DNA from: Cyanidioschyzon merolae
Lineage: Eukaryota
Strand: one strand, 5' to 3'
NCBI GenBank assembly: GCA_000091205.1
Contig: AP006497.2
DNA: 64,000 nt
Shown: positions 25,690 to 56,049 of the stretch, piece by piece
Layout: every line of letters begins with the position of its first letter
Position numbering within the stretch: the stretch's first letter is position 1
The notes under the pieces: model-generated
The model's input: the letters and a program-made list of their open reading frames with translations, nothing else
Database searches by the model: none
What the model was told of the DNA's origin: nothing
Made by a program: the position numbers and the translations under genes

Positions 25690-27090
25690 GAAAATGGGGC
25701 GTCCCGTTTCAGACTTTCAATTCAATTCTATTCCACCTTTGCTGCGATTTATTGGAGGAGGTCAAAATCGCTTTGCAATGTATATATCCTAGACGAATTG
25801 CTTGCAGGACGCATTCATTACTGTGCAGTGCAAGGAGGACAGCTTCCTTCTTCAGGCCAGTCATAACACAGCACTCAGATGCTTGCGGAACATTGAAAGA
25901 AACAAGTATATGCGCTGCGCATCAAAAACCGGTATTCTCAAAGAGTGCTTGCGATCGATTGTAGAAAACGGCCTGTTTATCACCTTACGGGAAGCAAAAG
26001 CAACGATAGCAGCCATCATGAGCGCCTCTCTTTCTCAACAGCTTGTTCATGTGGTCCTAAAAACATTCGGATACAGTCGAAGAAAACGAGACTTAGTTCA
26101 CGCACGAGAGTCTTCTACCGAAATCGCAACGACTGTGTTCCTGGAACCTCGAGGTCGATGTGAAGCACCAGGACGTTGGTTTGTTTTTCTGACAGTCGAA
26201 GAGACTTGCGTCGGAGGAAAAGGTCGGAGCGTGTGCGGGTTTTTGCGGTTCAGGGAGCTCGTTATCTGCACGATGGAACTCGAAGAGATCGAGGATATCA
26301 TCATAGGCTCTTACTGCAGTAGATTCATTCTGCGGCATAAGTTTCGCTGGTACAGAAGGCTCACATAATAGCAACAACCATCTCATCGAATCATTGAAGA
26401 TTTTTCCCTGACGCTTGGCGGCTTCTGTCCATTGGACAACATGCATTTCATCAAGTCATTTGCGTTCGAGCTTTTCCGATTTCATCGACATAGAGATGCT
26501 TTCCATACCCCCGTACGCTCCTTGGTTGAAACCAATCCAAGGAGCGTTTTCTGTTGTAAAAAGTAATGATAGCTCCGCTGGGCGGATCGTTGATGCCTTC
26601 AGCTCACAGTAACACACCGGGGCACATATCGTCTTTCTTCCGCAAGTGCTCCTTCCTCCGGGAAGGTCATCATCTGAGGCTATTCAGAATTGCGTTCATT
26701 TTAAAAAAAATAAATGGATGAGCCTGTGTGTACGTTTCAGAGGTTCAATATGGAATGAAGGCGGCGAAGCGTATCCTCGACAGAAAAGCAGAGAGAGCTG
26801 ACAGAGCAGCAAATGGCACAGAGGGCACGGGTCCGTGATCTCCTTTCATTGATGAGTTTATGCAGCGGCAAGAAACGCGTCGAGATCGTGAACGCAGACT
26901 TTGACTCTGCTATCAACATCAGAAGATGTGCATTGATGAAAACGAGACCCGCAGAGCTGACGCGATCCAACGATGTAGGGGAGCTTCTAAAAGCCGAAGT
27001 GTACAAGCAGAAACTGAAGCCGATACCAGGGGCCAGTCAAAAAACGCTGGGAGGCGCTTTGAGTGGATACTAATTTACCCTCAGTGGTCG
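25690..27090 (+). mobile_element. Repeat/transposon family A, copy L1 (non-autonomous; relics of DDE transposase C-terminus at ~26415-26612 and TnpB/Fanzor-like RuvC-III tail at ~26813-27073)
   Basis: Three collinear blocks are shared with copies at 39133-40423(-), 43664-44953(+) and 52880-53408(+, partial). Module A: FSTACSCGPKNIRIQS...FYRNRNDCVPGTSRS versus FSTACSCSPHNTRIQS...FHRNRNDSVHGTPRS. DDE-like tail: MLSIPPYAPWLKPIQGAFSVVK (compare Tc1/mariner L-PPYSPDLNPIE-W). TnpB-like tail: LCSGKKRVEIVNADFDSAINIRRCAL (compare RuvC-III D-x-NAA-x-NI). The 3' terminus ...ccctcagtggtcg is homologous to ...ctccatggt[tc]g in the other copies. Confidence 0.7.
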
Positions 27091-38711: not shown

Positions 38712-39132
38712 CAGAGCTGCCCTGACACGAAAACACTACTGCGAGCGGAACGCTCGGAAAGCTCTTTGTGGACGCCCTCCAGAGTAGACACTCAAAAATA
38801 CGTCCAAGTCACAACCACGACGTCGTACGGACTAGACAAAAGAGGGCTCAAATGAAAATAAACATGCAGCCACTACAGTTTCTAAAGCTTTTCAACGACC
38901 AGACGAAATACACTGCGCTCTTATCTGTGCGAGGCGACTGGATGGTCGCTGTACACAGACAGTGCTCTCACAGAATTTTTTGACACCAATTTGTCGGAGG
39001 ATTAGTTGAATCAGCAGAGCCTTTCGCAGCGATGGAGACACCCTGATGACATCTAAGCAACTCTGGTGTGCGGGTATTGTAGTCAAGTCGAGTGTAGCTT
39101 CCATTTATACTCAGTAAAATAAAAACATTCTA

Positions 39133-40423
39133 CGACCATGGAGGGTATCGTGATACCCGCTACCAGATGCCTCCTAATCTCTTTTGACCTGCCGCCTGCT
39201 ATCAGTCTCATCCTCTCATTGTAAACGTCAAACCGGATGGGCTGCCTCACAAAATTCGCTCGCGTCAGCTCCTCCGGTCTCGTCTTCAGTACCCCACATT
39301 GTCTGGTATTGATGGCGGCATTGAAATCACGGTTAATGAACTCCGTGCGTTTGTTCCCTCTTGTGGAGCTCACTATTGGTAGAATTACTCGAACTCGTGC
39401 TTTCTGTGCCATTACAGTCTCGTCGTGCTCCCGCGGGACGAACACCTTTGTCTCACCTGCCTCCGCTCTTTTTATTCCACGTGATTTGCTCTTATTCGCT
39501 CGATGGTTGGCGATAAGAGGATTTTTTCGTTTTTTTCCGGCAGTCGGTGATGACGGGCCTCCAGGAGGATCGACTTCCCTGTCAATGCCTTCCCCACTGA
39601 TTGTTTTATTCTAAAAAATGGACACGCTTCTTTATGCTTTTATACGAAGATCTTCCCGAGAAAGAGGCACTGGTATAAGAAAGAGGAATCGTGCCCAGGC
39701 GTTACCATGCTGAAAGCTTCAGAGGTTCGCCCAGTGGAGCGACCATTACGTTCCACAATAGAAAACACTCGTACGATGGGGTTGAACCTCGGGCAGTGCG
39801 AAGGAGTAAAAAGCAGCTCTAGCCCTACAGAATCGGTAAAAGCTGGAACGCAAATGGAATGGTGCAATGTCATGTTGTCCAACTGAAAAACGTCGCCAGA
39901 GGTTAGGGAAAAGTCTCCGACGATTCGTCGAAGTGGCTGCTGTGTTATAAGTATTCTCTACGAGCGAAACTGAGGCCGCCAACACTATCTACTACAGCTA
40001 GAACAGATGATGGTGTCGTCTTTCTCTTGGAGATCCATCGTACACGCCTTGGGCTCCTTCTCCGCGAATACGCATATACGCCCCAACGGTTTCGTCCGAA
40101 GTTAGTCTCATCGACCGAAAAGACAAACCGATGTCCCTCTGCTTAATACCGGTCGCGCCGTTCCGGGAATTCGGTGGTTGCGATGTCCGTGGAAGATGGC
40201 GGAGCCTGAAACTGAAAAATTTTTGGGACTACATCCGAATTTTTTCAGGACAACACGCAAAAGCTGTTGAAAAAAGAGACGCTCGAGGCGGCTACCATCG
40301 ACACTTTTGCTCCCCATACCGTGACCAATGAGTCAGTTTCCACGATCGACCGCAAGCAGTCTTTTAGTATTTTGGTGTTTGGCGCAGAGCCCATGTTCTT
40401 GGTTCTTTCAGTGTTTCGTAATT
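39133..40423 (-). mobile_element. Repeat/transposon family A, copy L2 (minus orientation); its 5' region continues into the left arm of the 40424-43663 palindrome
   Basis: TnpB-like tail ORF 39083..39445(-) (...SSTRGNKRTEFINRDFNAAINTRQCGVLKTRPEELTRANFV...). DDE-like tail ORF 39640..39882(-) (...GLELLFTPSHCPRFNPIVRVFSIVERNGRSTGRTSEAFS). Module A ORF 40108..40317(-) (...IFHGHRNHRIPGTARP). 3' terminus cgaccatgg at 39133-39141 (rc ccatggtcg). Confidence 0.7.
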
Positions 40424-41691
40424 ATCTGAGTACTGTCGTATGACTCACCTCAAGGACGAATGCAAGTCCTCTTTGCACTGCGCGGTCAAGAATGTATTCA
40501 TAGGAAATTCGCCTACGATCTAAACGGTACATCGCAAAGTTAGTTCGGTCGTCTGCAATACACTGTGTAGAACCACGCATTTACACTCAATGGGAGTGGC
40601 CCAGAACAGAGTTGAAAGAATAACCAAGACGCAACTTGGCGCCAGCAAATTTGGCACGCATTGTTTTCCAAGCGACTTCAGTCTTGTGCTGTCACTGGCT
40701 GTTGCCTTAATGAGGTTGATGGTATCGAAACCTCGTATATATATTAGCGCGCTTATTTTGGGAGTCATTGTCGTTGCAGTGGCCCTGCGCAGCTTGTCAA
40801 AGTTCTCCCATTCCACTCTAGTCTCGAGAGGGAACAGAGGGCTAGAGTTACACGCTTTTTATAACGTTTTCTGGAACTCAGGGACGCCACGTATAGCGCA
40901 AGAGCAACTATCCTGGCTCGAATCAAGCGGAATCAAAATCGATGCTCTGCACGTGTTCGCTTTCGGGACTAACCTGTCAGGGTTGGAAAGAATCGAGAAG
41001 TGGACAAGTGCACCAGTCGTATACGAGCAGTTGAGCCCGATCGGGAACGAGGAAGTTACGCTTGCGGCTCTACACAGGTTCTGCACAGTTGCGGAACTGA
41101 AAGGCAAAAGTGTCTTCGTTTTATACTTCCATCCAAAGGGTTCGTTTCATCCGAGCATTCGAAATGAAAAGTATCGACAAGCCGTTGGGCATTATGTGCT
41201 GCGAAAGCCCCAGGGTTGCCTGAGCGCCATGGCGCTTCAATCATGCGACGCTTGTAGTCTCCGCTTCTCAGAGTATCCGCACGCTCATTTTCCTGGGAAT
41301 ATGTGGTGGGCAAACTGTAGTTATATCTCCATGCTGTATGCGCCGGATATTCCGAGAACAGAGCTCAAGTCTGCAAAGCTTCCGGAATATTGCATAGGGC
41401 TCGGTCGGTTTGCTAGTGAACACTGGATTGGTTCGCACCCTCAACTAAGACCATGCGACTGCTTCCCCGTCACTGAGGACGCATTTTACTGGTATGGGTT
41501 CTCGGGTCTCGATGGTGTCCACCGTCTGATGAACAGTACGATGGACTGCAGGCGGGGGCCGCGTCCGAATATAATTGAGATTGCGCGAAAAAAAGGATAC
41601 GATGTCGAGCTTAACCTACGCTGCCGTGAAGTTTCGGCCGCAGGCGACAGACGCGCCTATGGCTTTGAAACTACGTCGAGCTAAGGCTCGC
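40424..41691 (+). repeat. Left arm of a large inverted repeat (1268 bp, apparently 100% identical to 42396-43663 in reverse complement); contains gene copy 40590..41684
   Basis: ORF track shows identical 364-aa proteins at 40590..41684(+) and 42403..43497(-) and identical 98-aa ORFs at 40520..40816(-) / 43271..43567(+); all coordinates obey x <-> 84087-x. Arm ends were located by eye at 40424/43663 (outer) and 41691/42396 (inner). The ~704-bp spacer 41692-42395 is unique. Confidence 0.9.
40590..41684 (+). CDS. Hypothetical type-II membrane protein (N-terminal signal anchor + ~295-aa lumenal/extracytoplasmic domain); copy 1 of 2 identical genes
   Basis: 364 aa. TM segment ISALILGVIVVAVALRSL near the N-terminus. 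Conserved-looking blocks (HVFAFGTNLSG, VFVLYFHPKGSFHPS, HFPGNMWWANCSYISMLYAPD, CDCFPVTEDAFYWYGF) reminiscent of Golgi glycosyltransferase-like proteins, family not identified. Confidence 0.7.
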   Translation: MGVAQNRVERITKTQLGASKFGTHCFPSDFSLVLSLAVALMRLMVSKPRIYISALILGVIVVAVALRSLSKFSHSTLVSRGNRGLELHAFYNVFWNSGTPRIAQEQLSWLESSGIKIDALHVFAFGTNLSGLERIEKWTSAPVVYEQLSPIGNEEVTLAALHRFCTVAELKGKSVFVLYFHPKGSFHPSIRNEKYRQAVGHYVLRKPQGCLSAMALQSCDACSLRFSEYPHAHFPGNMWWANCSYISMLYAPDIPRTELKSAKLPEYCIGLGRFASEHWIGSHPQLRPCDCFPVTEDAFYWYGFSGLDGVHRLMNSTMDCRRGPRPNIIEIARKKGYDVELNLRCREVSAAGDRRAYGFETTSS

Positions 41692-42395
41692 AATGGACAC
41701 GGTATAGAAAAATCAAACCGGTTTTGAAAATTGCGATCCGGTGCGCCGCTCGAATTATTCATCGACATTCGATTTTATGCTCAGTCGGAGTGCCGTTTTA
41801 CTCCTGTATTCTCTAAAACCTTGGTACGCTCGCTACGGGAAGTCTTTAATGCGTTTCTGGCGTGCAAGTCTTATTTCCTGGGGAGTAATTCCATTCCGAC
41901 ATCACTTAGACACACGCCTATTTTGCATCTTCGGATCACTCAAGACATCCACACGGGTCTCGTCCGTTCGCTACGGTGGCCTGCTCCGGTCTTCTTTTAC
42001 TGGAATAGGGCTGTTTTCCTCCATTAAAAATACTTTCCGCATGGATCCTCTGAGATATATATTCAAGGCTTTAAAACCCCACTTGGTAGTTGACAGGTTC
42101 AGTTTATGATACTCTCACTAGCGAGATTTCACACTCGGAAGCTGTTTCCTTCAAAGAGAACACTGGCTGCACCTTACGAGAGTGGGGCTTAGTCGCGCAA
42201 CAGCACTATGATTTGAAGCTCACCAACGTAGGGAAAGGCTGTAGCGCGCACTGTCAGCGCGACATAATTCCAAAACCTTACTCTTTTCGAACGCTTTGCT
42301 GGTTCCGAAAATATGAATTGCCCCATTCGAGTACGATCCCAACAACTGCTTTTGCACTTCAAAATACCTGAAGACGCAACTGCGCCGCATCCATT

Positions 42396-43663
42396 GCGAG
42401 CCTTAGCTCGACGTAGTTTCAAAGCCATAGGCGCGTCTGTCGCCTGCGGCCGAAACTTCACGGCAGCGTAGGTTAAGCTCGACATCGTATCCTTTTTTTC
42501 GCGCAATCTCAATTATATTCGGACGCGGCCCCCGCCTGCAGTCCATCGTACTGTTCATCAGACGGTGGACACCATCGAGACCCGAGAACCCATACCAGTA
42601 AAATGCGTCCTCAGTGACGGGGAAGCAGTCGCATGGTCTTAGTTGAGGGTGCGAACCAATCCAGTGTTCACTAGCAAACCGACCGAGCCCTATGCAATAT
42701 TCCGGAAGCTTTGCAGACTTGAGCTCTGTTCTCGGAATATCCGGCGCATACAGCATGGAGATATAACTACAGTTTGCCCACCACATATTCCCAGGAAAAT
42801 GAGCGTGCGGATACTCTGAGAAGCGGAGACTACAAGCGTCGCATGATTGAAGCGCCATGGCGCTCAGGCAACCCTGGGGCTTTCGCAGCACATAATGCCC
42901 AACGGCTTGTCGATACTTTTCATTTCGAATGCTCGGATGAAACGAACCCTTTGGATGGAAGTATAAAACGAAGACACTTTTGCCTTTCAGTTCCGCAACT
43001 GTGCAGAACCTGTGTAGAGCCGCAAGCGTAACTTCCTCGTTCCCGATCGGGCTCAACTGCTCGTATACGACTGGTGCACTTGTCCACTTCTCGATTCTTT
43101 CCAACCCTGACAGGTTAGTCCCGAAAGCGAACACGTGCAGAGCATCGATTTTGATTCCGCTTGATTCGAGCCAGGATAGTTGCTCTTGCGCTATACGTGG
43201 CGTCCCTGAGTTCCAGAAAACGTTATAAAAAGCGTGTAACTCTAGCCCTCTGTTCCCTCTCGAGACTAGAGTGGAATGGGAGAACTTTGACAAGCTGCGC
43301 AGGGCCACTGCAACGACAATGACTCCCAAAATAAGCGCGCTAATATATATACGAGGTTTCGATACCATCAACCTCATTAAGGCAACAGCCAGTGACAGCA
43401 CAAGACTGAAGTCGCTTGGAAAACAATGCGTGCCAAATTTGCTGGCGCCAAGTTGCGTCTTGGTTATTCTTTCAACTCTGTTCTGGGCCACTCCCATTGA
43501 GTGTAAATGCGTGGTTCTACACAGTGTATTGCAGACGACCGAACTAACTTTGCGATGTACCGTTTAGATCGTAGGCGAATTTCCTATGAATACATTCTTG
43601 ACCGCGCAGTGCAAAGAGGACTTGCATTCGTCCTTGAGGTGAGTCATACGACAGTACTCAGAT
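42396..43663 (-). repeat. Right arm of the large inverted repeat (mate of 40424-41691)
   Basis: See left arm. Confidence 0.9.
42403..43497 (-). CDS. Hypothetical type-II membrane protein, copy 2 (identical to 40590..41684)
   Basis: Identical 364-aa translation in the ORF track. Confidence 0.7.
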   Translation of the reverse strand: MGVAQNRVERITKTQLGASKFGTHCFPSDFSLVLSLAVALMRLMVSKPRIYISALILGVIVVAVALRSLSKFSHSTLVSRGNRGLELHAFYNVFWNSGTPRIAQEQLSWLESSGIKIDALHVFAFGTNLSGLERIEKWTSAPVVYEQLSPIGNEEVTLAALHRFCTVAELKGKSVFVLYFHPKGSFHPSIRNEKYRQAVGHYVLRKPQGCLSAMALQSCDACSLRFSEYPHAHFPGNMWWANCSYISMLYAPDIPRTELKSAKLPEYCIGLGRFASEHWIGSHPQLRPCDCFPVTEDAFYWYGFSGLDGVHRLMNSTMDCRRGPRPNIIEIARKKGYDVELNLRCREVSAAGDRRAYGFETTSS

Positions 43664-44953
43664 GGTTGAACAATACTGGAAGAAATAGGGATATGCGTCC
43701 AGCGCAGTAAACCGATATTCTCGAAGACTGCCCGCTGTCAATGCTAGAAAACGACCCGTTGATTACCATACGGAATGCAGAAAGCGACGATAGTAGCCGC
43801 CACGAGTATCCCTGTTTCTCAACAGCGTGTTCGTGTAGTCCTCATAACACCAGGATTCAGTCGCAAAAAAGTCCGATTTACGTCACGGCCATCTTCCACC
43901 GAAATCGCAATGACAGCGTGCACGGAACGCCGCGATCGATATGAAGCAAAGGGATGTCGGTTTGTTTCAGTCGATGAAACTTCTTTGGTACGACACCCTA
44001 GGGGCGTCTATTGGTAATATGCGGAGAGGAAGCCCGTTGTTTGTACGATCGAACTCAAAGAGAATGAAGATATCTTTTTTTCTAGCTTCAATGGATTCAT
44101 TCGGTGGCCTCGGTTTTGCTCGTGGTGATGGCTCGTACAAGAGCACAAATCAATTCGGTGAATCATTGAAGAATTTCCCCTGACGTCTGGTGACGTCCAT
44201 CTATTGAAAAATGTGACATTGCACCATTCCCCTTGGGGGCGAGCTTTTGCCGATTCTATCAGGGAAGAGCTGCTTTTCATTGCTCCGTGCTCTACGTGTT
44301 CCAAACTATTCGAAAGAGTGTTTCCTATCGTGAAACGTAATGATCGCTCCACTGGCCGAGTCGCTGAAGCGTTCAGCGCACGGTGACTCCGGGGTGCATT
44401 CGGTTATTCTTGCGCAAGTGCTTCTCCGTCAGAGAAGGCCCTAACCTAAGGGCATGAGGAAGTGCTTTCATTTTCAAAAATAAAAAATCCAAGGGAAAGT
44501 TATGGAAATGGAACTCAAGTATCCTAGAAGCCCGATGTCGCCGGCAGCGTGAAAAATCGAAAAAATTCTTTCCTCGCTGACCATCGAGCGAAGAAGAGCA
44601 AGATATGAGGAGAAAGAAGAGGGAGATATGAGAGAAAAAGTATTTTCCCGACGGGAAAATCGCTAGACTGTAGTGACACCGAGGGCAAGAGTTCGAGGAC
44701 GCCTTCCACTGGTGTGTTCAAGCAGAGGCAAGAAACGCATGGAGTTCGCGACCCGAGACTTCGACGCCGCCATCAATATTAGGAGATGTGCGGTGCTGAA
44801 GAGGAGACCTGAGGAGCTGACGCGAGCGAACTTTGTGGGGCAGCCCCTCAAGCTCGAAGTGGACACGGAGAAGCTGAAACCGATAGCGAGGGTCGGTCAA
44901 AAAATGGCTCGGAGGCGTCTGCGGATGGGTAGATATATTTATCCTCCATGGTT
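43664..44953 (+). mobile_element. Repeat/transposon family A, copy L3 (plus orientation); its 5' region continues into the right arm of the palindrome
   Basis: Module A ORF 43741..43944 (FSTACSCSPHNTRIQS...FHRNRNDSVHGTPRS). DDE-like tail 44204..44386 (ELLFIAPCSTCSKLFERVFPIVKRNDRSTGRVAEAFSAR). TnpB-like tail 44673..44957 (VCSSRGKKRMEFATRDFDAAINIRRCAVLKRRPEELTRANFVGQPLKLEV). 3' terminus ...atcctccatggtt at ~44953. Confidence 0.7.
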
Positions 44954-45892
44954 ATGAAATGCTTATTGTTTCAGTGACCGTTATGTGTACAATGCCGAGA
45001 ATATCATTGTCGGCTCTTTCTGGCAATGCGTTGCAGTTGAGTCAATCATACTGAACAACTACTACCCGTCGTAAAATAATGGAGAGAGCATATCTTTATC
45101 TTACAAGCAGAATCCAATGGATAGAACGAAAAACTCTAGAATAGGTCGAGCAATGCTGCATCTTTCGTTGCTTCCGAGTTGCTGCGAATGAGCTGTTTGT
45201 CGGCTCTTTGCATCACTGCAGATTCTCTGCAGCCGTCACGCCCGTCTGAGCCGAGTATTGACGTAGAGCAGCTATATTATCGACGAACCAGTCAAGGTTT
45301 TCGGTACTGGAAAATATCTTTTGCTACTTCGAGCGATCGGATGCACTCTGTTTGAAGAGCCTCACAGGTGGCTTTCCAGGATTTTCTTCTGAATGGCTCT
45401 CGGTTTCATTGTAGACTGACGCGTGACCGGACTCTAGCTATCCGAACCAATCGACTCTACGTGGGTATTTCAAACTTCAAATCTAAACTCGAAGAAGCTA
45501 AAAACATGCCAAAGAAAAACGTGACACTTGGTCAGGTCAGCTGAGTACCTGATCCCTTTGAGCGCACAGTTTTCTACAAGACCATCTCCAGAACCCAATT
45601 TTGTTGCTCAAAAAAACCCACTTTTTGGTTAAGAAGCTGCGAGCTTGACTGCAGACTGTATCGACGAACTGAGGAACTCTCACTTGTACAGCATGATAGC
45701 GCACAGCTTTCGATGCGCAGCGCTTTGAGCAGCCTAGAGCCGAGTGGATAGCCAGAAGCATGATGATTGCACGTTGCATCGCGCAATGATATTGGTAAAA
45801 TATTTGCTCTGTCTTTGTTCGTATAGTTTTGTTGTGGTCTAGTTTGTTTAATTCACCTGTATAAGAAAGCGTACGGATAGTTTCCGCAGTGG

Positions 45893-48148
45893 ATGGAAGC
45901 ATACCTCTCAGCACCTTCACGACCGAGTGTGACGCTTTCTGAATTCTCTGGTCGCCGGGTTTGCCAGACGAAACGGAACGATTCTCTTCTGGGCGCTCGG
46001 GGGAGGTTTGCACCGGGCACGTGGGAGCGCGTAGTGCTCGGGCGTCGCGGTGGTTCCCGTACAGTCAGTCGTTTGCCTCAAGTGCGTGCAACAGCTACTG
46101 CTGGGGTATCGCTAGTGAAGCCAAAGCAGACGGGGAACGCGTTCGCTGACCTCTGCATCAACAGCATTCGTTTCCTGGCTGTCGACGCCGTAGAGAAGGC
46201 GAACTCTGGACACCCTGGAGCGCCCATGGGTCAGGCCCCGCTCGCGTTTACTCTTTGGGACAAGTATCTGCGCTTTAACCCCAAGAATCCGAACTGGGTC
46301 AATCGCGATCGTTTTGTGCTAAGCTGTGGTCATGGGTCTATGCTTCAGTATGCTCTGCTTTACCTTTATGGATACGATCAACCAACAATGGACGATATCA
46401 AAACTTTCTGTGAATTTGGTTCTTGCGCTACGAGTCACCCCGAGAACTTTCTTCTTCCTGGCGTTGAAGTGACCACAGGGCCTCTGGGCTCTGGCGTGGC
46501 ACAGGCTGTTGGTCTCGCTATCGCCGAAGCGCACCTCGGAGCAATGTTCAACACCCCAGAGGAGAAGCTGATTGACCATTACACCTACTTCATTATGAGT
46601 GATGGATGCATGCAAGAAGGAGTAGCTGCAGAGGCCGCATCTTTGGCAGGCCATTTGGGACTGGGGAAACTAATCGGGTTTTTCGATGATAACAAGATAA
46701 CTTACGATGGACCAACAGACCTTGCGTTTAGTGAGGATGTCGTATCTAGATTCAAATCGTATAACTGGCAGGTAATTAGCATTGCAGATGGAAACACAGA
46801 CATCGACAACATCTCGAAAGCAATCGAGGAGGCGCAAAAAGATCTGACACGACCATCACTAATCATAGTTCCGACAACAATTGGTTTTGGCTCACCAAAA
46901 CACGCGAACAAAAGGACAGCACATGGAGAACCTTTCGGATCTGACGAAGTCAAGGCAACGCGGGAGAATCTTGGATGGAAATATGCTCCTTTCGAGGTCC
47001 CAGAGGAGGTGCTGAAACATTGTCGCCGCAAGATCCAAGAGGGGGCACGTCTTGAACAGGAATGGAATGAGCTCTTGCAGCGGTACAAGAGTAAGCACCC
47101 AGAACAGGCTGCACTATTCGAGCGGATGGTGATTCGCAAGGAGAAGAGCCCTGGTTGGGAAAAGGCCCTCAAGGATTGTGCGGCAAAGACAGGCTCCATG
47201 GCTACGAGGCAAGTCTCCGGCGCAATGCTCAATGCGCTCGCTGCGGTGATGCCGGAGATCATCGGGGGATCTGCAGACCTGGCCCCTTCGAACAACACGC
47301 TCCTGAAGGGCTTTGGCGATTTCTCTCGTAACAACTACAAAGCCAAGAATATGCGCTTCGGTGTCCGCGAGGCAGCGATGACTGCGATCACCGCGGGCAT
47401 CAAGCTCCACAACACTGGACTGTTTCCCTACTGCGCGACTTTTCTGATATTCACCGATTACGCCCGGGGCATGCTCCGCCTTGCTGCCCTCTCCGAGGCG
47501 GGAATCACGTTCATTACAACGCACGACTCCGTCGCCTTAGGCGAGGATGGCCCCACGCACCAGCCCATCGAGCATCTGGCTAGCCTGCGAGCTATGCCGA
47601 ATGTGTACACGTTCCGTCCGTGCGATGCGAACGAGTGCGCAGCTGGCTATGCGCTCTCGATCCGGCATGATGACAAAGTCGTTCTGTTGGCGCTCACGCG
47701 ACAGAAGACGAACAAGCTCGAGACATCCTCATACGATGGTGCCCTGCGCGGAGCGTACGTGGTTTCGGATAATAGCCCTGCGGGCAAGCACCCGGATGTG
47801 ATCCTTATCGGAACAGGCTCCGAGGTGGACGTCGTCGTGGAGGCCGCCGATCAACTACGAACTAGCGATGCTTTGAATGTGCGCGTGGTGTCGATGCCCT
47901 GCATGGAGCTCTTTGAGGACCAGGATGCAGCTTATCAAGAGTCTGTGCTTCCTGCTGCCGTGCCTCGCAGCCGGAGGGTCGTATGTGAGGCTGCCTCAAG
48001 CTTCGGCTGGTCGAAGTATGCGGATCACTTTGTGTGCATCGATCGCTTCGGAGCGTCCGGCAAAGGGCCTGACCTGATGAAGTACTTTGGGATCACGCCG
48101 TCGAACGTAGCGAAGAAGGCGCGAGAGGCTGCAGGAAAAGGCGTTTGA
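45893..48148 (+). CDS. Transketolase, copy 1 (with ~75-aa N-terminal presequence); central block diverged, including Tyr in place of the conserved His of the LLHL motif
   Basis: 751 aa with standard TK blocks ([82 protein letters not shown]). Ends are nucleotide-identical to copy 2, but 46325-46943 differs: SCGHGSMLQYALLYL, SHPE, MSDGCMQEG, YDGPT. Confidence 0.95.
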   Translation: MEAYLSAPSRPSVTLSEFSGRRVCQTKRNDSLLGARGRFAPGTWERVVLGRRGGSRTVSRLPQVRATATAGVSLVKPKQTGNAFADLCINSIRFLAVDAVEKANSGHPGAPMGQAPLAFTLWDKYLRFNPKNPNWVNRDRFVLSCGHGSMLQYALLYLYGYDQPTMDDIKTFCEFGSCATSHPENFLLPGVEVTTGPLGSGVAQAVGLAIAEAHLGAMFNTPEEKLIDHYTYFIMSDGCMQEGVAAEAASLAGHLGLGKLIGFFDDNKITYDGPTDLAFSEDVVSRFKSYNWQVISIADGNTDIDNISKAIEEAQKDLTRPSLIIVPTTIGFGSPKHANKRTAHGEPFGSDEVKATRENLGWKYAPFEVPEEVLKHCRRKIQEGARLEQEWNELLQRYKSKHPEQAALFERMVIRKEKSPGWEKALKDCAAKTGSMATRQVSGAMLNALAAVMPEIIGGSADLAPSNNTLLKGFGDFSRNNYKAKNMRFGVREAAMTAITAGIKLHNTGLFPYCATFLIFTDYARGMLRLAALSEAGITFITTHDSVALGEDGPTHQPIEHLASLRAMPNVYTFRPCDANECAAGYALSIRHDDKVVLLALTRQKTNKLETSSYDGALRGAYVVSDNSPAGKHPDVILIGTGSEVDVVVEAADQLRTSDALNVRVVSMPCMELFEDQDAAYQESVLPAAVPRSRRVVCEAASSFGWSKYADHFVCIDRFGASGKGPDLMKYFGITPSNVAKKAREAAGKGV

Positions 48149-48447
48149 GGACGCCGCGGAAGCAGCGGTTCTGTGCCGGGCAAAGATTTTCAAGCGGCGT
48201 TTGCTGCGGCAACGCTCTGCGGAATGGGAACGCTTTGGAAGAGAGTATTCTTGCAGGGTCTAAACACGGCTGTAGTATCCCGCGTGATCACGTTGGGCCT
48301 CATCGTTCTCGTTCGCAAATGCGTTCCGTAGAACGTGCTGTTCTCTAGGGTAACAACGGCTGGGTACGCGGCAGCTGCATCGCCTCTGGGCTGGAGCGGG
48401 TCCTGCGGTTTTGAACCGTTGTCCACCTCGAAGGTTTTCTCCCGCCG

Positions 48448-48963: not shown

Positions 48964-49640
48964 AAGGAGTGGCTGCGGCTGCCGCTTGGGCGTATCGCAA
49001 ACGAGTTCTTGGTGATGCATCGGGCGAGCAGCTGCCGCGTCCAGCTCGAGTGTCGGACCGAATATCGCCTGTTTGATGATGTATCTGCGTGGAGCTTTCG
49101 AGATGGATACGCTTGTACGAAAAATGATCGTAGGTGTGGCATGCCTGCATGCTCGAGACACCGGCAGGATGCGTTCTACGACTGTGCCTCGGAGGCTCGT
49201 GCAGAACGCTGCCGAGACGTGCACACTGGCGCTGTGGCGCTTTCGGGCTACGGAAGTCTGGAAAGAGCGTTCTCCAAGCTTTGCACAACGCCTATGCCGG
49301 TACCTGCAAGACCACGCTGTGTCGTGAGGCACCCCTGGTTCCCATGGGTCATGCTTCAGAGCGCGAGTGAAGCGCCGCGGATGCTGCTCCATAGCAGAAT
49401 AGGTGCGGTGCTAGATCGAACTAGCGGCCTGATCTAATATGCACGCTGGTGCGTGAAAGTCTTCCATGCACATTTTGGGATATGGAATCGAGTGCGTAGC
49501 AGAAGATTGCGCAAGACTGTTTCGATGCATGCGAGTGCGCACGCTGTGACGCAGCAGGGGATTTGCGAGCCTCGGCTGGCAGGGCCCCCAGCCGGCGTCC
49601 ACGAGGGAATAGCTGAGCTGTCCCGTCTGTGTGTGGCGTT

Positions 49641-49646
49641 CGCAGT

Positions 49647-49685
<39 letters not shown>

Positions 49686-50714: not shown

Positions 50715-53036
50715 TTACAGCGGGGATCGTCCAGTGTCTGTATCACGGTGGTAGTCGAAGGGCTCATTGAAAACGCATCCAACTTGACCCCGTAGATATC
50801 TCTCCATGAGATCCCTGGTTGAAGCGTTGAACTCTTCCGAAATGGGGCGGCCGAAGTAGCGGCTTTCGTTCAGCTGCTTTCGGACACGCTTTGCGAGCAC
50901 CTTTCCGAGTTCGACGCCCCACTGGTCGAATGAATTGATGTCCCAGATGAAACCCTGGACTGCCGTGCGATGCTCATAGAGCGCGAGCAACTGGCCAGTG
51001 GCGTACGGATCCAGCCTCTGCAGCAGCAGCGTCAGACTCGGCCTGTTGCCAGTCGTCACGAGATGCGGAATCAGCCATTCGGGGCGGCCCTCTGCACGAC
51101 ACTCCGCCGCTGTTTTGCCGTACGCCAGAGCATCTGGCTGGGCGAAAAAGTTCGCCATGAGCTCGTCTGCATTGCTGACCGGCTCACCCTCGATGCACAG
51201 CGGGTACTGGGACTCGATGAAGCCAATAAAATCGCAGGGTACCGTCTGCCCCATATGCAGCAGCTGGAAAAACGAGTGCTGGCCGTTGGTGCCGGGCTCT
51301 CCAAAGTCGATCTCACCGACCGCGTAGTCGACGTCGTCGCCGCGCAGCGTCACGTGCTTACCGTTGCTCTCCATGTCAACCTGCTGGATATGAGCGGGGA
51401 ACTTGAGAAGCGCCTCTGCGTAAGGATGCAGCGCCCGGCTCTTGTAGCCGAGAAAAGACAGGTTCCAGACGCCGAGAAGCCCCATGATCACCGGCAAGTT
51501 CCCCGCCAGCGGACTAGCAACGTCGTAAAAGTTCGCATCAACAGAGCGCGCGCCCTCTAGAAATCGCAGGAACGTGGGGAAGCCGTACTGAATCGAGAGC
51601 GGCAGCGCTCCGACCGCAGAGCACACGGAATACCTACCCCCGACCCAGTCCCAAAACTCAAAAGTGTTCCGCGGGTCGATCCCGAACTTCTCCACCATCG
51701 GCACGTTGCTGCTGCAGGCAACCATGTGGAGCCGCACGACCTCATCCGAGCGCCCCATTTCGGACCAGAGCCATTCGCGCATCGCCCGTGCATTCAGAAG
51801 CGTCTCCGCGGTTGTGAACGACTTGCTCACGATCACTATCAGCGTCTCCTCCGCCGACAGATCCTGCGTGCAGCGCTTGATATCCACAGGATCCACGTTG
51901 CTGAGAAAATGAAGGTGCCGCCCCCGCGCCGCCTCAAACGCCTCCGGATCCGTCCGAAACGCCTCGTGCACAAAGTCTGGCCCCAGATACGAGCCGCCAA
52001 TCCCCACAGCGATGACGCTGCGAAGCGGCTTCCCCGTGGCGCCGCGATGCTCCCCGCTGCGCACCCGCTCGCTGAACTCACGCACGTGATCGAGCACCCG
52101 CCACACGTCACGAACAACGTCCGTACCGTCGACAACAAGGCTTGCGTTCCGCTCCGCGCGAAGCGCCGTATGCAGCACGGCGCGCCGCTCGGTCACGTTT
52201 ATGTGCGCGCCGGACTGCATCGCGCGGATCTTATCCACCAAACGCGCACGACGCGCTAGCGCGAAAAGTAGCTCAATCGTATCCTTCGTCACCCGCTGCC
52301 GCGAGTAGTCGAGGTAGATCCCGTCATACTCAGCGCGCAGAGAACGCACGCGATCGACGTCCTGCATCAGCTCCCGCAGGTGCAAACGATCGATCTCAGA
52401 TGCATGCTCCACCAGCCGTCTCCACTCGGCAGTCTCCGAGATGAGGACGTAGTCGGTCGGCACCGGCAGTGGTGGCGGCGTTTCCGAAGGAAGCCGCCTC
52501 CCAACGGTGTAGCTCCCGCGAACGTCCCCCGCTGTGCAACGCGGAAACGCACGTCTCCGCAAAAGCCCAGCAGACCCGTGGTGCGGGTACAGCGCCCTGG
52601 ATCGGCGCGATCCAGCTACCCCACCCCGAAGCGGCCACCCAGGCACGACAAAGGCGCTCATCAGGCGAACACTCTCCCAGCAAGCAAAGACCAGGTGCAC
52701 ACTATTGCGCACTGCACCGCGCAGCGAGCTTTCAACTGGCGTCCGCTTCTTGGGCGATTCGCCTCCGGCACGCGCGGCAGGCGGGTGCAGCTGCGAGGGC
52801 GCGGCCAACGGATCAGCGACTCGTTGATAGACTTTCACCTGAATTGCGTTCCATACGCAGGTGCGTGCCATCAACTGCTCTTTCGCCGCTGATGAGAGAC
52901 GCGTTCCGCGTGCGTGCCTTAGCAGAAATAAAAAATCTAGGGGAAGGTATGGGCATGGAAGTCGGAGATCAAAGGCGGTCGCCATGGCCGGCTTCTTGAG
53001 GGAAAGGACGAAAGAAATCCTGGTCTCGCCGACCAT
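50715..53036 (-). CDS. PGI: Glucose-6-phosphate isomerase (PGI); ORF has a ~190-aa N-terminal extension, and the real start is probably an internal Met (<=52870) because the extreme 5' end overlaps TE copy L4
   Basis: Mature part has canonical PGI blocks: [55 protein letters not shown], and the isomerase signature ...[10 protein letters not shown]. Confidence 0.9.
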
Positions 53037-53408
53037 GGAGCGAAGAAGCGCAAGTGACGAAGAAGAAGAGAGGCACAGGGGCGGCAGGCGAGAAGAGGGG
53101 TTCGCCCGATGAGACTGCGACGAGACTGTACTGGGAGAGGGGGCACGAGATCGAGGAACTCTCGCAATATCGAGTTCATGCAGAGGAAATATAGAGATGG
53201 AGTTCGTGACCTGGGACCTCTATGCCGCCATCAATATCAGGGAATGTGCGGTTCTGGAGACGAGGCCCGCAGAGCCGACGCGATCCAGCATTGTGGGGCA
53301 GCCCCTGAGGCTTGAAGTGCACAAGGCGAAGCTGCAGCCGATGGCAGGGGCTGGTCAGGAACTGCTGGGAGGCGTCTGGGACTGGATATATATTTACCTA
53401 CCATGGTT
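52880..53408 (+). mobile_element. Repeat/transposon family A, copy L4 (5'-truncated; retains the A-rich internal segment and the TnpB-like tail)
   Basis: agcagaaataaaaaatctaggggaaggtatgggcatggaag...ccatggagcgaagaagcgcaag aligns with L3 ttttcaaaaataaaaaatccaagggaaagttatggaaatggaac...ccatcgagcgaagaagagcaag. TnpB-like tail [41 protein letters not shown]. 3' end ...tacctaccatggttg at ~53408. Confidence 0.65.
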
Positions 53409-56049
53409 GTGGATTATTGCGCGTGAGGCAGCGCGATATTTCTTCCACCTCGTTGATTGGGCGCTTCTCCCAGCGCGCATACATTCACACCGACGCATTC
53501 GATCACGCACCATTCTCTTCCTCGCCACCCTTCGTTCCCGGTACAATACTTTTCACAAAACGTGTAGATTATTACGAAATTCATTGCGGCACTTTGCACT
53601 GTCGCGGGCATATCGTACAGGACTTTCTGCTGAGTGCGATAACGCCTCCAAGGCTTCTAAGACATCATTGCGTTTGGCCTGCACGTTTCTGGATTATTCG
53701 CCCAGTCATTACTCTCTGCTGAGATAAAGATGAGACGTATGTTAGTAGGTCTTACAGCTGTTGGTTGAAGTCCGATGGTTCACCAACGATTCCTCCAGTG
53801 CGTCGTCGTTTACCACAGGCAGGCGGACTCCTCCTCGAGCCTCAACGAAGCGCTGGTGTATGGAGTCTCTTTCCCTGGCTTCAGGCCGACGCACTGTGCA
53901 TAGCGGAGAAGATTCACGAGGACATGCTTCTGCATTGCTTGATGTTCCACCGTGTCTTACCTCATCTGAGCAGAGGAGCGTTTGGGCTCTCAGTGGGCCG
54001 TGTACCGTGCAAGACGCCCGCGTTTGATGATTTTGGATGCAGCTACGTCATTGGTCTCGAAGGAGGACGCTACGTCTTGTCGTGATGGTGCGAATTCTTT
54101 GTTCCTTCTTTATTTCTTTCCCATACGCATCTATCTTTGCTTTCATTGACTTGTCGCTCCTCCTCCCGTTTTTGCGTTCCTTCGAAGCTTCGGGCCAAGA
54201 GCGCACAATTTCTTCCATGCACTCCAGGCAGTCGATAAGCTCCTCTTCTGCTTTGATGCTCTTCGTGTTGTGCATCAGAAGCATCTACGCCGCCTGTACG
54301 GAGGCGCCCCACTCAATCAAATTGGAAAAAAGCCTCATATCGAGGTGCTGGTAGGAGCGACTTAAAGATTCGATTGGAAAAGTAGAAAATTTCTTCCCTT
54401 CAGGGACACGGTACAGCACCCCAAATGCAGAAGCATCATCCCTTTCTTTTGCTGGTTACTCACAGGCGACAGCTGAATCATTTCTTTGGCGTATTCGTCT
54501 CGGAAAAGCATTCGACGGAGGTTTACAATGCTCCCTCTCTTTCCAGTCGATGGGCTTCGACGAAACGCCGATAACGAAGAGCTCCTTCATGTCGCCCGGA
54601 CTTGAGACCGACTCGTGGTTTTTTCGTTTCAACATCAACGAATACATCACCCGAGGGTGGAAGTGAACGCTGACGTGTTTCAGGCTCGCCGTGCATACTT
54701 TTCGTCCCAAGTGCCTCTTTGTTTTTCTGGAACGCTTTGAGTCTCGCAACGAGTGAAATCCTCGGCATCCGCAAATTTGTTCAGCTGAAAGACCGAAGAG
54801 CGTTCGGCGTCGATGAAAGCTCAGAGCGAGAGAGGAGTACTCGGCATGTACTCTGGAAGAGTGAGGGCATAGAAGGCGGTCGGTGTCAATAGTCTCTCAA
54901 AGAAATTCATCACTTTCACAAGGTCCTTGAAGTGAGGAATGTCCGCAGTCTTGTGCGAAAGGCAAGCATGTTGCTGGAGCTTGCTGAAAGAAATGCATAT
55001 TTACATGCGCAGGATGTGTGCTCCGGCAAGAGCAAGCACGCTCAGATGAATCCCTTTATGAGTGTAGCGTCGCAAAGTAGCGACACGCAAAGCTCCTCGT
55101 TCGCGTAGCTGCCCGAGCGTTGAGGTTCGTACAGCAAGGCGATCCGTCGAAAGGTGGCGACGTTCTCTGGGACGGGTATGCACCTCTGTTCGAAATGCTC
55201 TAGGATTTCTTTTTAGTCCTTAAACAGCTGTTTCCCTCTCTCACATGGTGTGGTTGGGCTGTGTGCCTCTGTTGACGAACCAGCAATTTATTGTCATTCT
55301 CAATTCATCTTTCAACTTTTTCCCTCACGTCTCTTCAGAAATCCGCCAACCTAAAACTTGGAAACCTTGTGCGAAACAAACCCTGGCAGGCCGGGCGGTT
55401 TCAATTGCGGCCTCTAAAGCGACGAGCACCAGTTCGTATTGAGGACAATCCAAGGTATTGACATGTGCATCCGCTTCCCCAGGTCAGTGCCTCGCGGAAC
55501 CGGAAGACGTTCTTCATTTGGCGAAACTATGGAAAATAAGTTCGAATGCATAAAATGATCCATCCTCTGGTCTCTACTCATTACCAACGGAAAAGTATTT
55601 GTGGAACGCGATTTTTCCACGAAGAAGAATATACTGGGGCGAAAATCCGGGTTTGAGGACGAGTTGAGAAATTTCGATATTTGCAAGCTCCCTTCTTGTG
55701 AAGATCTGATGCGCTCTTCGTGGAAAGCGATCGCTGGGATGACTGACGTCCGAGTCTTAGATACTTTTCTCTCCAAACAGAGGAGGTCGGAGCCTCTGAG
55801 AGCTTCTCTCGATTTTGGTACTATGCTGCTATCGAATGCCGTTTCATCGATGGCAGGACGGAGTAGGGGACCCTCCTTTTGAACAGAATCTATTGTATTA
55901 CCCTAGATGGTCAGTTACGTTCTAGAGTGATCTTGTCAACGAGTCTCCAACGAGCAGCCTCGAGTAATTTTTGTCGTCAACCCAGCAGTAAGCGAGACCT
56001 GCTGCGCCCACGACTTGTCTTGAAACATAAAGATAGAAAACTTGAAACA

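What the first reader, a model, noticed from the sequence alone, without database searches (positions are those of the whole stretch)
39133..44953. ~5.8 kb palindrome: two inverted units (TE module + 364-aa membrane-protein gene); inner 1.27 kb arms identical, outer parts ~70-75% identical
Two units are arranged tail-to-tail: L2 (39133-41691) and L3 (42396-44953). Each unit is [TnpB-like tail <- DDE-like tail <- module A] followed, on the opposite strand, by a 364-aa type-II membrane-protein gene. The inner arms (40424-41691 / 42396-43663) look 100% identical over 1268 bp and include both gene copies. Family-A homology between L3 and the independent copy L1 runs straight through the 43663 identity boundary. 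That boundary is therefore inside the repeat unit and looks like a gene-conversion tract edge, not an insertion edge. Either intra-palindrome gene conversion is homogenising the gene-bearing arms (as in sex-chromosome palindromes), or there was a very recent inverted duplication on top of older TE copies. The gene-X stop (41684) lies 7 bp from the inner arm edge (41691), which suggests the gene sits at the terminus of the mobile unit. L1 retains ~60 nt resembling the gene-X 5' end, so the full-length family-A element may originally have carried gene X as a passenger.
Basis: partly seen in the sequence, partly recalled or inferred. Interest (0 to 1): 0.8.

Follow-up and report, generated by a model that had tools for sequence, protein, structure and literature searches.

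The report
Gene-bearing palindrome kept identical by conversion

Summary
The window has a perfect inverted repeat, 40424-41697 / 42390-43663 (1274 bp), with a 692-bp spacer and 70.9%-identical outer arms. The window matches C. merolae 10D chromosome 15; the two genes are CMO119C and CMO120C.

Gene X is a conserved host gene (DUF8361, GT-A fold, membrane-anchored). It sits at its ancestral position between a short-chain dehydrogenase gene and transketolase, and is single-copy in relatives that lack the transposon. It is not a transposon passenger.

The outer arms are decayed copies of one transposon: a Tc1/IS630-like DDE transposase relic plus an internally deleted CMe-1A Fanzor1.

About 25 independent environmental contigs show both copies. 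In those strains identity starts about 195 bp further in, at the transposon end. Their arms also run 500 bp further toward the centre, leaving a 192-bp core.

So the 10D outer boundary is a private L3-to-L2 gene-conversion tract. The 10D inner boundary is a 500-bp deletion between AATGGA repeats.

SNPs shared by both copies confirm ongoing conversion. How the palindrome arose is unresolved.

This is a new member of a known kind, of moderate interest.

The parts
39129..39600 (-). L2 outer part: relic of an internally deleted CMe-1A Fanzor1 (TnpB-like) gene. It keeps the first ~55 codons and the last ~90 codons, including the RuvC-III motif NRDFNAAIN.
   Evidence: The CMe-1A consensus (Bao & Jurka 2013, supplement) aligns at positions 898-969. 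tblastn of the CMe-1 Fanzor1 protein matches aa 640-726 to 39421-39164 (E 3e-22) and aa 1-55 to 39586-39410.
39601..40619 (-). L2 relic of a Tc1/IS630-like DDE transposase gene. Its 5' end faces gene X.
   Evidence: Pfam DDE_3 matches 39640-39882 with E 2.3e-7, 31.2 bits against a cut-off of 28.6. tblastn with the L1/L3 pseudo-ORFs covers 39964-40580. L1 homology extends to about 40619.
40424..41697 (+). Left arm of the perfect inverted repeat in this assembly.
   Evidence: Exact reverse complement of 42390-43663, 1274 of 1274 bases.
40437..40615 (.). Gene-conversion patch private to this assembly (10D): L3-type sequence sitting in the L2 copy.
   Evidence: Nine L2-side contigs from different samples differ here by 38-41 substitutions plus a 22-bp and a 1-bp indel. 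In the 1712 bp of flank to the left they are 99.6-99.9% identical to the window.
40710..41684 (+). Gene X copy 1 (derived orientation). The probable true CDS is 324 aa starting at M41; it is annotated as 364 aa from 40590. DUF8361, N-terminal membrane helix, GT-A fold.
41698..41889 (.). 192-bp unique centre of the palindrome, as seen in wild strains.
   Evidence: In contigs L022, L025 and L010 this segment is flanked by 94-98 nt perfect or near-perfect inverted repeats within a single contig.
41890..42389 (.). 500-bp segment that is single-copy here but belongs to both arms in wild strains. Its left-hand copy is deleted in 10D.
   Evidence: None of the wild contigs, L2-side or L3-side, shows the 10D arm-to-41698 junction: every contig that reads past the arm end continues into rc(41890-42389), and those that reach its end then join 41698 onward or, in L012, read on through 41889 as the window does. 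The deletion junction is flanked by direct AATGGA repeats: GCAATGGA|CACGG vs GGAATGGA|CACGG.
42390..43663 (-). Right arm of the perfect inverted repeat.
42403..43377 (-). Gene X copy 2, in the ancestral orientation relative to the SDR and transketolase neighbours. Annotated to 43497.
   Evidence: Synteny with Cyanidiococcus yangmingshanensis and a second relative: TKT(-) geneX(+) SDR(+) TBCA(-) WD(+).
43468..44460 (+). L3 relic of the Tc1/IS630-like transposase gene, 5' end facing gene X.
   Evidence: Homology to L1 and L2.
44460..44957 (+). L3 relic of the internally deleted CMe-1A Fanzor1.
   Evidence: CMe-1A positions 869-969 and 2840-3084 align at 77-79%. Fanzor1 aa 646-730 match with E 3e-22.
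25713..27079 (+). L1: unlinked copy of the same composite transposon (transposase relic plus Fanzor1 tail). It carries no gene X.
52910..53413 (+). L4: solo copy of the deleted-Fanzor1 part.

Best explanation
This is a small gene-bearing palindrome on Cyanidioschyzon merolae 10D chromosome 15, annotated as CMO119C and CMO120C. A conserved host gene has been duplicated in inverted orientation at its ancestral locus. The gene encodes a DUF8361 protein with an N-terminal membrane anchor and a GT-A fold, so it is probably a glycosyltransferase-like enzyme. Each copy abuts the 5' end of a long-dead copy of one composite transposon: a Tc1/IS630-like DDE transposase plus an internally deleted CMe-1A Fanzor1.

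The two gene-bearing arms are homogenised by intrachromosomal, arm-to-arm gene conversion.

In wild strains the identical arms are about 1.58 kb. They run from the transposon 5' end through the gene and 500 bp of 3' flank, around a 192-bp centre.

The 10D lineage then acquired two private changes:
1. A conversion tract, L3 to L2, that pushed the identity boundary about 195 bp outward into the transposon, to 40424.
2. A 500-bp deletion between direct AATGGA repeats at the inner end of the left arm. This created the 41697 edge and the 692-bp spacer.

Shown: the anatomy, the host-gene status, the strain-specific boundaries, the polarity of the patch, and the polymorphisms shared between the copies.

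Inferred: that these two changes are real in 10D rather than flaws of the reference; the enzymatic function; and the origin. For the origin I favour (about 50%) a duplication younger than the two transposon copies and bounded by their ends, over an old co-duplication of transposon plus gene (about 30%).
For: 1. The structure is real.
- Perfect 1274-bp arms.
- L3-side junctions appear in L001, L007, L010-L013 and L016. L2-side junctions appear in L008/L023, L017, L019, L022, L024 and L025 (L2 outer flank present) and in L018, L020 and L027 (assigned by their L2-type sequence at arm positions 14-192). All come from different JGI, ENA or Logan samples.

2. Gene X is a host gene.
- Orthologues are single-copy, in the order TKT, geneX, SDR, TBCA, WD, in Cyanidiococcus and a second relative.
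- No transposon homology was found at those loci.
- The family has 2689 distant relatives at E <= 1e-3.
- GT-A fold.

3. A conversion tract is seen directly.
- The 10D L2 flank differs from wild L2 flanks by 5 substitutions and 1 indel in 1712 bp.
- The next 179 bp then carry 38 substitutions and 25 gap positions, and at every one of them 10D has the L3 state.

4. Concerted evolution.
- Wild L2-type and L3-type contigs show no fixed difference over about 1.58 kb.
- Arm position 202 is C in both 10D arms and A in every wild contig of both types that covers it.
- Position 239 is C on L3-type contigs (L015, L016) and on an L2-type contig (L019), only 47 bp from the nearest diagnostic site.
- Position 356 is A on L3-type contigs (L010-L014) and on an L2-type contig (L027).

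5. The inner edge is a deletion.
- None of the wild contigs shows the 10D arm-to-41698 junction; every one that reads past the arm end carries part or all of rc(41890-42389) after the arm.
- Single contigs show the 192-bp centre flanked by perfect inverted repeats.

6. Transposon identity: and Bao & Jurka 2013 (PMC3627910).

7. The same window holds two more near-identical duplications. Homogenised or recent repeats are therefore not exceptional here.
Against: - The two 10D-specific features (the patch and the 500-bp deletion) are seen only in the reference sequence. Look-ups of ORFs spanning those junctions found nothing. Long palindromes are prone to rearrangement in E. coli clones (my own knowledge).
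- Short-read contigs cannot phase sites deep inside 1.6-kb identical arms. Only the shared SNPs near the diagnostic region (positions 202, 239 and perhaps 356) are securely linked to a copy, and no L2-type and L3-type contig come from the same sample.
- The converted patch shows no GC bias (15 vs 15).
- The long-term conversion rate and the age of the duplication are not determined.
Confidence: 0.8

Rival explanations
1. The palindrome is real, but the 10D-specific details are artefacts of the Sanger/BAC-era reference. Under this view the identity reaching 40424 and the missing left-hand 500 bp arose from rearrangement of a 1.8-kb-arm palindrome in E. coli clones, or from mis-assignment of reads between the arms.
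For: All nine L2-side wild contigs disagree with the window at exactly these two places. No independent record of the two junction-spanning ORFs was found. The deletion lies between short direct repeats, which is also the typical signature of clone instability (my own knowledge).
Against: Both junctions must exist in at least one physical clone or read to have been assembled: only 13 bp are shared at 40424-40436 and 6-8 bp at the deletion. The annotated 10D proteins CMO119C and CMO120C are both 364 aa, which requires the L3-type upstream sequence in both copies. The 10D genome was finished to completion (my own knowledge: Nozaki et al. 2007). A 192-bp spacer makes a palindrome fairly stable in E. 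coli (my own knowledge).
Confidence: 0.12
2. A recent inverted duplication alone explains the identity: the arms are identical only because they are young, and no gene conversion is needed.
For: In wild strains the step from about 70% to 100% identity sits at the transposon 5' end. The transposon copies L1-L4 are roughly equidistant at 66-74%. This fits a duplication laid on top of older, independent transposon copies.
Against: The duplication predates the split between 10D and the wild lineages, whose flanks differ by 0.1-0.4%. About ten arm differences would be expected in that time, yet none is fixed. Lineage-specific and polymorphic sites are shared by both copies (positions 202, 239, 356). 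10D carries a 179-bp block of L3 states inside an L2 context. Conversion is therefore needed in addition.
Confidence: 0.05
3. Old co-duplication: a transposon-plus-gene unit was duplicated once, long ago. The transposon parts decayed to 70% identity while conversion, helped by selection on the gene, kept the rest identical.
For: L2 and L3 share the same composite structure and the same junction with the gene's upstream sequence. L3 vs wild L2 (70.4%) is marginally closer than either is to L1 (66-68%).
Against: It requires the wild-type identity step to coincide by chance with the transposon 5' end, to within about 5-20 bp in 1.4 kb. It also requires the outer limit of homology to coincide with the transposon 3' end. 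L2 and L3 are no closer to each other than to the unlinked copies L1 and L4 in the Fanzor tail (72% vs 70-74%).
Confidence: 0.3
4. The unit is a mobile element, either a composite transposon or a transposon carrying gene X as a passenger, that inserted here twice.
For: Inverted transposon copies flank the gene pair. The gene's annotated 5' end overlaps transposon-like sequence.
Against: Gene X lies at its syntenic position in relatives where no relic of this transposon could be detected. L1 and L4 lack gene X. All transposon ORFs are decayed. The overlap concerns only a spurious N-terminal extension that is absent from orthologues.
Confidence: 0.03

Closest known systems
Human Y-chromosome (MSY) palindromes P1-P8 maintained by arm-to-arm gene conversion (e.g. 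P6, PMC3723533; original description recalled from my own knowledge)
   Same: Inverted arms surround a unique spacer and carry genes. Arm identity is far higher than the age of the structure would allow. The outer boundaries are sharp. Conversion tracts and variants shared between arms are visible when lineages are compared. The chromosome is haploid, so the other arm is the only available partner.
   Different: The arms here are 1.3-1.8 kb rather than 9 kb to 1.45 Mb, with one gene per arm. The organism is a unicellular red alga and the chromosome is an ordinary one. The arms are bounded by transposon relics. No GC bias was detected in the one tract examined.
Long near-perfect inverted repeats holding convergent or divergent paralogous gene pairs in Caenorhabditis elegans (Zhao et al. 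2007, PMC1803023; found, abstract only)
   Same: Kilobase-scale inverted gene pairs with short spacers, conserved as structures and thought to be actively homogenised.
   Different: Different lineage. Here the evidence comes from natural strain variation within one species, and the repeat edges coincide with transposon ends.
CMe-1A, the Fanzor1 (eukaryotic TnpB-like) element of C. merolae (Bao & Jurka 2013, PMC3627910)
   Same: The outermost ~0.45 kb of each unit aligns to the CMe-1A consensus at 77-79% and encodes the Fanzor1 C-terminal tail with the RD-NAA-N motif. Divergence is of the same order as the ~80% identity to consensus reported for the ~150 genomic copies.
   Different: The copies here are internal-deletion derivatives (consensus ~869-969 joined to ~2840-3084). 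They are fused downstream of a Tc1/IS630-like DDE_3 transposase relic, whereas the paper described CMe-1A as unclassified, without TIRs or TSDs.
Inverted-repeat-mediated fold-back or template-switch formation of palindromic duplications, as described in yeast and in tumour amplicons (my own knowledge)
   Same: Two inverted dispersed repeats (here transposon copies) sit exactly at the outer ends of a new inverted duplication, and a non-homologous or microhomology joint sits near the centre.
   Different: Nothing about the formation event was observed here. It is only an inference from where the boundaries lie.
GT-A fold glycosyltransferases (e.g. mannosylglycerate synthase 2bo4, hyaluronan and heparosan synthases)
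   Different: Sequence identity is 5-11%. There is no conserved DXD motif: the equivalent position carries an invariant Y-x-H-x-K-G. The family is an uncharacterised DUF (PF27674).

Membership tests
Palindrome homogenised by arm-to-arm gene conversion | Two inverted arms separated by a unique spacer | tested here: met
   1274-bp exact arms with a 692-bp spacer. In wild strains the arms are about 1.58-1.77 kb with a 192-bp spacer.
Palindrome homogenised by arm-to-arm gene conversion | The duplication is older than the lineage splits, yet the arms carry no fixed differences | tested here: met
   Both copies are present in 10D and in all wild lineages sampled. The flanks differ by 0.1-0.4%, and no fixed L2-vs-L3 difference is seen inside the shared arm.
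Palindrome homogenised by arm-to-arm gene conversion | Lineage-specific or polymorphic variants present on both arms | tested here: met
   Position 202: C on both arms in 10D, A on both types in wild contigs. Position 239: C on L3-type L015/L016 and on L2-type L019. Position 356: A on L3-type L010-L014 and on L2-type L027. Caveat: the contigs come from different samples, and phasing of position 356 is less secure.
Palindrome homogenised by arm-to-arm gene conversion | A discrete tract in which one arm has taken on the other arm's states | tested here: met
   At 40437-40615, 38 substitutions and two indels all switch to the L3 state in 10D, inside an otherwise L2-type context.
Palindrome homogenised by arm-to-arm gene conversion | GC-biased conversion | tested here: inconclusive
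   15 AT-to-GC against 15 GC-to-AT changes in the single tract. One event cannot show a bias.
CMe-1A / Fanzor1 element | Nucleotide and protein similarity to the published consensus, including the C-terminal RuvC RD motif | tested here: met
   77-79% nucleotide identity. tblastn E 3e-22, with NRDFNAAIN (L2) and TRDFDAAIN (L3).
CMe-1A / Fanzor1 element | Intact Fanzor1 ORF (734 aa) | tested here: not met
   Only about 55 N-terminal and about 90 C-terminal codons remain, with frame breaks.
Tc1/mariner-IS630 (DDE_3) transposon | DDE_3 transposase domain | tested here: met
   PF13358, E 2.3e-7, 31.2 bits against a gathering score of 28.6, on 39640-39882. This covers the C-terminal third only. The N-terminal ORFs give no Pfam hit.
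Tc1/mariner-IS630 (DDE_3) transposon | Terminal inverted repeats and a TA target-site duplication | tested here: inconclusive
   No convincing TIR was seen by eye in the aligned ends, and no formal search was made. The copies are about 30% diverged, and only three copies with a 5' end are available.
Transposon-carried passenger gene / composite transposon | The gene travels with the element and is absent from the syntenic site in relatives | tested here: not met
   Gene X is at the syntenic site in relatives where no relic of this transposon was detected. L1 and L4 have no gene X.
GT-A fold glycosyltransferase | Rossmann-like GT-A fold | tested here: met
GT-A fold glycosyltransferase | DXD metal/nucleotide-sugar binding motif | tested here: not met
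   In the 59-sequence alignment the invariant residues after strand 4 are Y139, H141, K143 and G144. There is no conserved acidic pair.
GT-A fold glycosyltransferase | Glycosyl-transfer activity | not testable with these tools
   Needs biochemistry.
DUF8361 (PF27674) | A Pfam hit on record for the protein and its homologues | tested here: met
   Precomputed PF27674 hits for the window protein and for P0001-P0005. The local Pfam copy predates this family, so it gave no hit.

The most novel reading that the evidence does not exclude
The palindrome was built by the transposon ends. In wild strains the identical arms begin within about 5-20 bp of the 5' termini of two old, mutually diverged, inverted copies of a Tc1/Fanzor1 element, and homology stops at their 3' termini. 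One reading is this: a break at the 5' end of the downstream transposon copy, possibly cut by the family's transposase or its Fanzor nuclease while still active, invaded the inverted upstream copy. It then primed synthesis outward, copying the neighbouring host gene plus 500 bp, and was sealed by end-joining at the 192-bp centre. That would be a transposon-end-primed route to inverted gene duplication, after which ordinary arm-to-arm conversion took over.
Probability: 0.2. Interest if true: 0.6.

Novelty: new member of a known kind. Interest (0 to 1): 0.35.

Why it matters
C. merolae has one of the smallest and least redundant nuclear genomes of any free-living eukaryote, and it is haploid. 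This locus shows that arm-to-arm gene conversion operates there and can be dated and oriented with natural strain variation: a private 179-bp-minimum tract, shared SNPs, and a microhomology deletion.

It corrects the annotation of CMO119C and CMO120C. The first 40 codons are transposon-derived, and the true protein is probably 324 aa.

It warns that the reference may differ from wild strains, or be wrong, at this palindrome.

It links the previously unclassified CMe-1A Fanzor1 family to a Tc1/IS630-type transposase.

It assigns a GT-A fold to a large DUF family.

None of these overturns current understanding.

Tried and rejected
Searches that gave nothing:
- Pfam on gene X: no hit, because the local copy predates DUF8361.
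- AlphaFold2 with only 5 sequences: pLDDT 53.6, discarded and replaced by a 59-sequence alignment.
- The afdb50 fold library was unavailable.
- PDB sequence-profile search: chance hits only.
- Word-indexed homologue search with the 188-aa L1 transposase pseudo-ORF: nothing.
- Pfam on the N-terminal transposon ORFs: nothing.
- BLASTP of the Fanzor tail against a Cas12f-like ORF on L006: nothing.
- nhmmer with a transposon profile against the orthologous loci of relatives: nothing. One weak tblastn hit in L003 12904-13014 (E 8e-4) was not pursued.
- tRNA and Rfam scans of 38.5-45.9 kb: nothing.
- Literature search for CMO119C/CMO120C: no paper.
- Look-ups of two ORFs that span the 10D-specific junctions: not on record, which is uninformative.

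Ideas considered and rejected:
- Fold-back assembly artefact of the whole palindrome: independent contigs support both sides.
- Purifying selection as the cause of identity: the non-coding 5' and 3' flanks and synonymous sites are also identical.
- Composite transposon or passenger gene: contradicted by synteny.

Ambiguous evidence set aside:
- The orientation of the 192-bp centre in the contigs was not used as evidence for flip-flop inversion, because assemblers cannot phase across the arms.
- L021 and L026 have anomalous starts and were not used.

Full report
**1. Observation**

The feature is there as described. The repeat finder reports arms 40305-41702 / 42385-43782 at 97%, plus four outer pairs at 72-77%. 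Base-by-base comparison gives an exact reverse-complement run 40424-41697 vs 42390-43663, 1274 bp with no mismatch. Ungapped identity falls to background within 120 bp on the outer side and at once on the inner side. A global alignment of the outer parts, 39133-40423 vs 43664-44953, gives 905/1276 = 70.9% identity, uniform along the length. No homology extends beyond the outer edges. The two 364-aa ORFs are identical. A self-BLAST of the window finds the further copies L1 (25771-26714, 26814-27056) and L4 (52910-53413). L1 homology crosses the identity boundary by 116 bp.

**2. Source and the gene**

The 364-aa protein is identical to the proteins CMO119C and CMO120C (BAM81491/BAM81492) of Cyanidioschyzon merolae 10D, on a 902,900-bp record. 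The window is therefore eukaryotic: a cyanidialean red alga.

Close homologues exist only in Cyanidiophyceae and all carry PF27674/DUF8361. In Cyanidiococcus yangmingshanensis (L002) and a second relative (L003-L005) the gene is single-copy, in the order TKT(-) geneX(+) SDR(+) TBCA(-) WD(+). The window has WD(-) TBCA(+) SDR(-) [geneX +][geneX -] TKT(+). The minus-strand copy therefore keeps the ancestral orientation, and the gene is a resident host gene. A more distant relative has an independent tandem direct pair, 67% identical.

Orthologues start at the residue aligned with M41. Wild L2 copies lack the upstream ATG and are called as 324 or 321 aa.

**3. The outer arms**

The 80-aa ORF at 39640-39882 passes Pfam DDE_3.

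The 'TnpB-like tail' is the C-terminus of the Fanzor1 protein of CMe-1A. This is the C. merolae element described by Bao & Jurka (PMC3627910) as having about 150 copies, each about 80% identical to the consensus. The consensus aligns at positions 869-969 and 2840-3084, and tblastn with the protein gives E about 3e-22 in L2 and L3, 3e-27 in L1 and 8e-16 in L4.

'Module A' is the N-terminal part of the same decayed transposase gene.

L1, L2 and L3 are thus copies of one composite element of about 1.4 kb. L4 is a solo deleted-Fanzor part. Pairwise identities are star-like at 66-74%. No trace of the element was found at the orthologous loci of relatives.

**4. Independent assemblies**

Look-ups of gene X variants and one metagenome scan returned about 25 contigs from different JGI, ENA and Logan samples.

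L3-side contigs (L001, L007, L010-L013, L016) match the window's right flank and arm at 99.3-99.96%.

L2-side contigs (L008/L023, L017, L019, L022, L024, L025, and by diagnostic sequence L018, L020, L027) match the left flank at 99.6-99.9%. Arm positions 14-192 (window 40437-40615) then carry 38-41 substitutions, a 22-bp indel and a 1-bp indel. After that they are identical to the L3-type arm.

At every one of those sites the 10D left arm has the L3 state. This is a discrete L3-to-L2 conversion tract private to the 10D sequence. Its outer end lies in the 13 identical bases at 40424-40436.

**5. Where identity starts in the wild**

The last L2/L3 diagnostic site is arm position 192 (40615 / 43472). 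Homology of the unlinked copy L1 to wild L2 continues ungapped to L1 25713, which corresponds to L3 43468 (64% over 56 nt; 9 of 1000 shuffles reach the score). Beyond that point the flanks are unrelated.

So in wild strains the step from about 70% to 100% coincides with the transposon's 5' end. The first ~30 nt of the annotated 364-aa ORF are transposon sequence. The 22-bp indel is absent from both L1 and wild L2, so it is an insertion in L3 that conversion copied into the 10D L2 copy.

**6. The inner edge**

No wild contig, on either side, shows the 10D arm-to-41698 junction: every contig that reads past the arm end continues into rc(41890-42389). Those that reach the end of this segment then join 41698 onward, except L012, which reads on through 41889 as the window does. 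Within single contigs, the 192 bp at 41698-41889 are flanked by perfect inverted repeats.

The wild palindrome therefore has arms 500 bp longer and a 192-bp centre. The window lacks the left-hand 500 bp. The missing segment is bounded by direct repeats, GCAATGGA / GGAATGGA, which indicates a microhomology deletion.

**7. Concerted evolution**

Over the shared ~1.58 kb I found no fixed L2-vs-L3 difference. Position 202 is C on both 10D arms and A on every wild contig of both types that covers it. Position 239 is C on two L3-type contigs and one L2-type contig, and it is only 47 bp from a diagnostic site. Position 356 (V67M) is A on five L3-type contigs and one L2-type contig. Position 1557 behaves the same way but cannot be phased.

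Together with the private tract, this shows conversion acting repeatedly.

**8. Origin (inference)**

Both limits of L2/L3 transposon homology are transposon ends. The transposon copies are no closer to each other than to unlinked copies. The identical arms start at the transposon end.

The simplest reading is that the two transposon copies were older, independent insertions in inverted orientation, and that the gene plus 500 bp was copied from one transposon end to the other by a fold-back or break-induced event. The alternative is an ancient co-duplication with conversion confined to the non-transposon part, which needs a positional coincidence.

I cannot decide between them. A genome-wide tree of the transposon family, or an intermediate strain, would.

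**9. Caveats**

- The two 10D-specific features rest on the reference alone. Junction-ORF look-ups were empty, and a cloning artefact is possible.
- Short-read contigs cannot phase across the arms. For that reason the two observed orientations of the 192-bp centre (L012 vs L010 and L011) are not evidence for inversion isomers.
- L021 and L026 have anomalous starts.
- L001 crosses both arm boundaries in a single contig, which is unexplained.

**10. Comparison and verdict**

Functionally this is the same phenomenon as Y-chromosome palindromes (PMC3723533) and the C. elegans inverted gene pairs (PMC1803023), in miniature and in a haploid red alga. The transposon relics belong to a published Fanzor1 family. 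No paper mentions the two genes.

It is a real, nicely resolved, but ordinary kind of structure: a new member of a known kind, interest about 0.35.

Noticed in passing
window 45899-49700 and 60199-64000: A direct duplication of transketolase plus the RMI1-like gene, 14.3 kb apart and running to the window end. Identity is mosaic: 100% for 45962-46261, 53-99% for 46262-46943 (inside the transketolase CDS), then 100% for at least 2.75 kb (46944-49700). It looks like gene conversion, or a recent duplication, around a retained diverged block.
   Followed up: partly
window 14302-14834 and 15234-15766: A second inverted repeat: 533-bp arms, 99.4% identical, 399-bp spacer, next to an ABC-transporter-like gene. 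No convincing gene lies in the arms.
   Followed up: partly
window 6074-7751: A large fragment of the CMe-1A Fanzor1 element (consensus positions 43-1743, 79% identity), with Fanzor1 residues 19-279 still readable at 64% identity.
   Followed up: no
window 25713-27079, 39129-40619, 43468-44957: In three copies the CMe-1 Fanzor1 remnant sits directly downstream of a Tc1/IS630-like DDE_3 transposase remnant, in the same orientation. Bao & Jurka 2013 left CMe-1A unclassified (no TIR or TSD). This arrangement suggests that the family descends from a mariner-type element carrying Fanzor1, as in their PUl-1.
   Followed up: partly
window 40590-40709 and 43378-43497: The first 40 codons of the annotated 364-aa proteins CMO119C/CMO120C are absent from orthologues, absent from wild L2 copies, and partly transposon-derived. 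The CDS probably starts at M41 (324 aa).
   Followed up: yes
L006 8535-10969 (ENA ERZ1300892 contig): A more distant cyanidialean relative carries two DUF8361 genes in direct tandem, 67% identical. This is an independent duplication of the same gene next to transketolase. The same contig has a 98-aa Cas12f1-like_TNB (TnpB/Fanzor) ORF at 287-583.
   Followed up: partly
L010 and L011 vs L012 (L3-side contigs), centre = window 41698-41889: The 192-bp centre appears in both orientations relative to the same flank in different samples. This could be flip-flop inversion isomers or assembler ambiguity across the identical arms.
   Followed up: no
L021 begins with a displaced 50-bp piece of the arm. 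L001 (Logan SRR29605866) starts with an Illumina adapter and spans both arm boundaries in one contig, so it may be a transcript contig.
   Followed up: no
proteins P0017-P0165 (relatives of gene X): DUF8361 is a large family: 2689 cluster representatives at E <= 1e-3. Many members are multidomain proteins of up to 1379 aa, one fused to a Methyltransf_24 domain (a weak CBM_5_12 match in another fell below Pfam's cut-off). All share invariant Q, Y-x-H-x-K-G, R, G-N, R, E and D residues on a GT-A fold that lacks DXD.
   Followed up: partly
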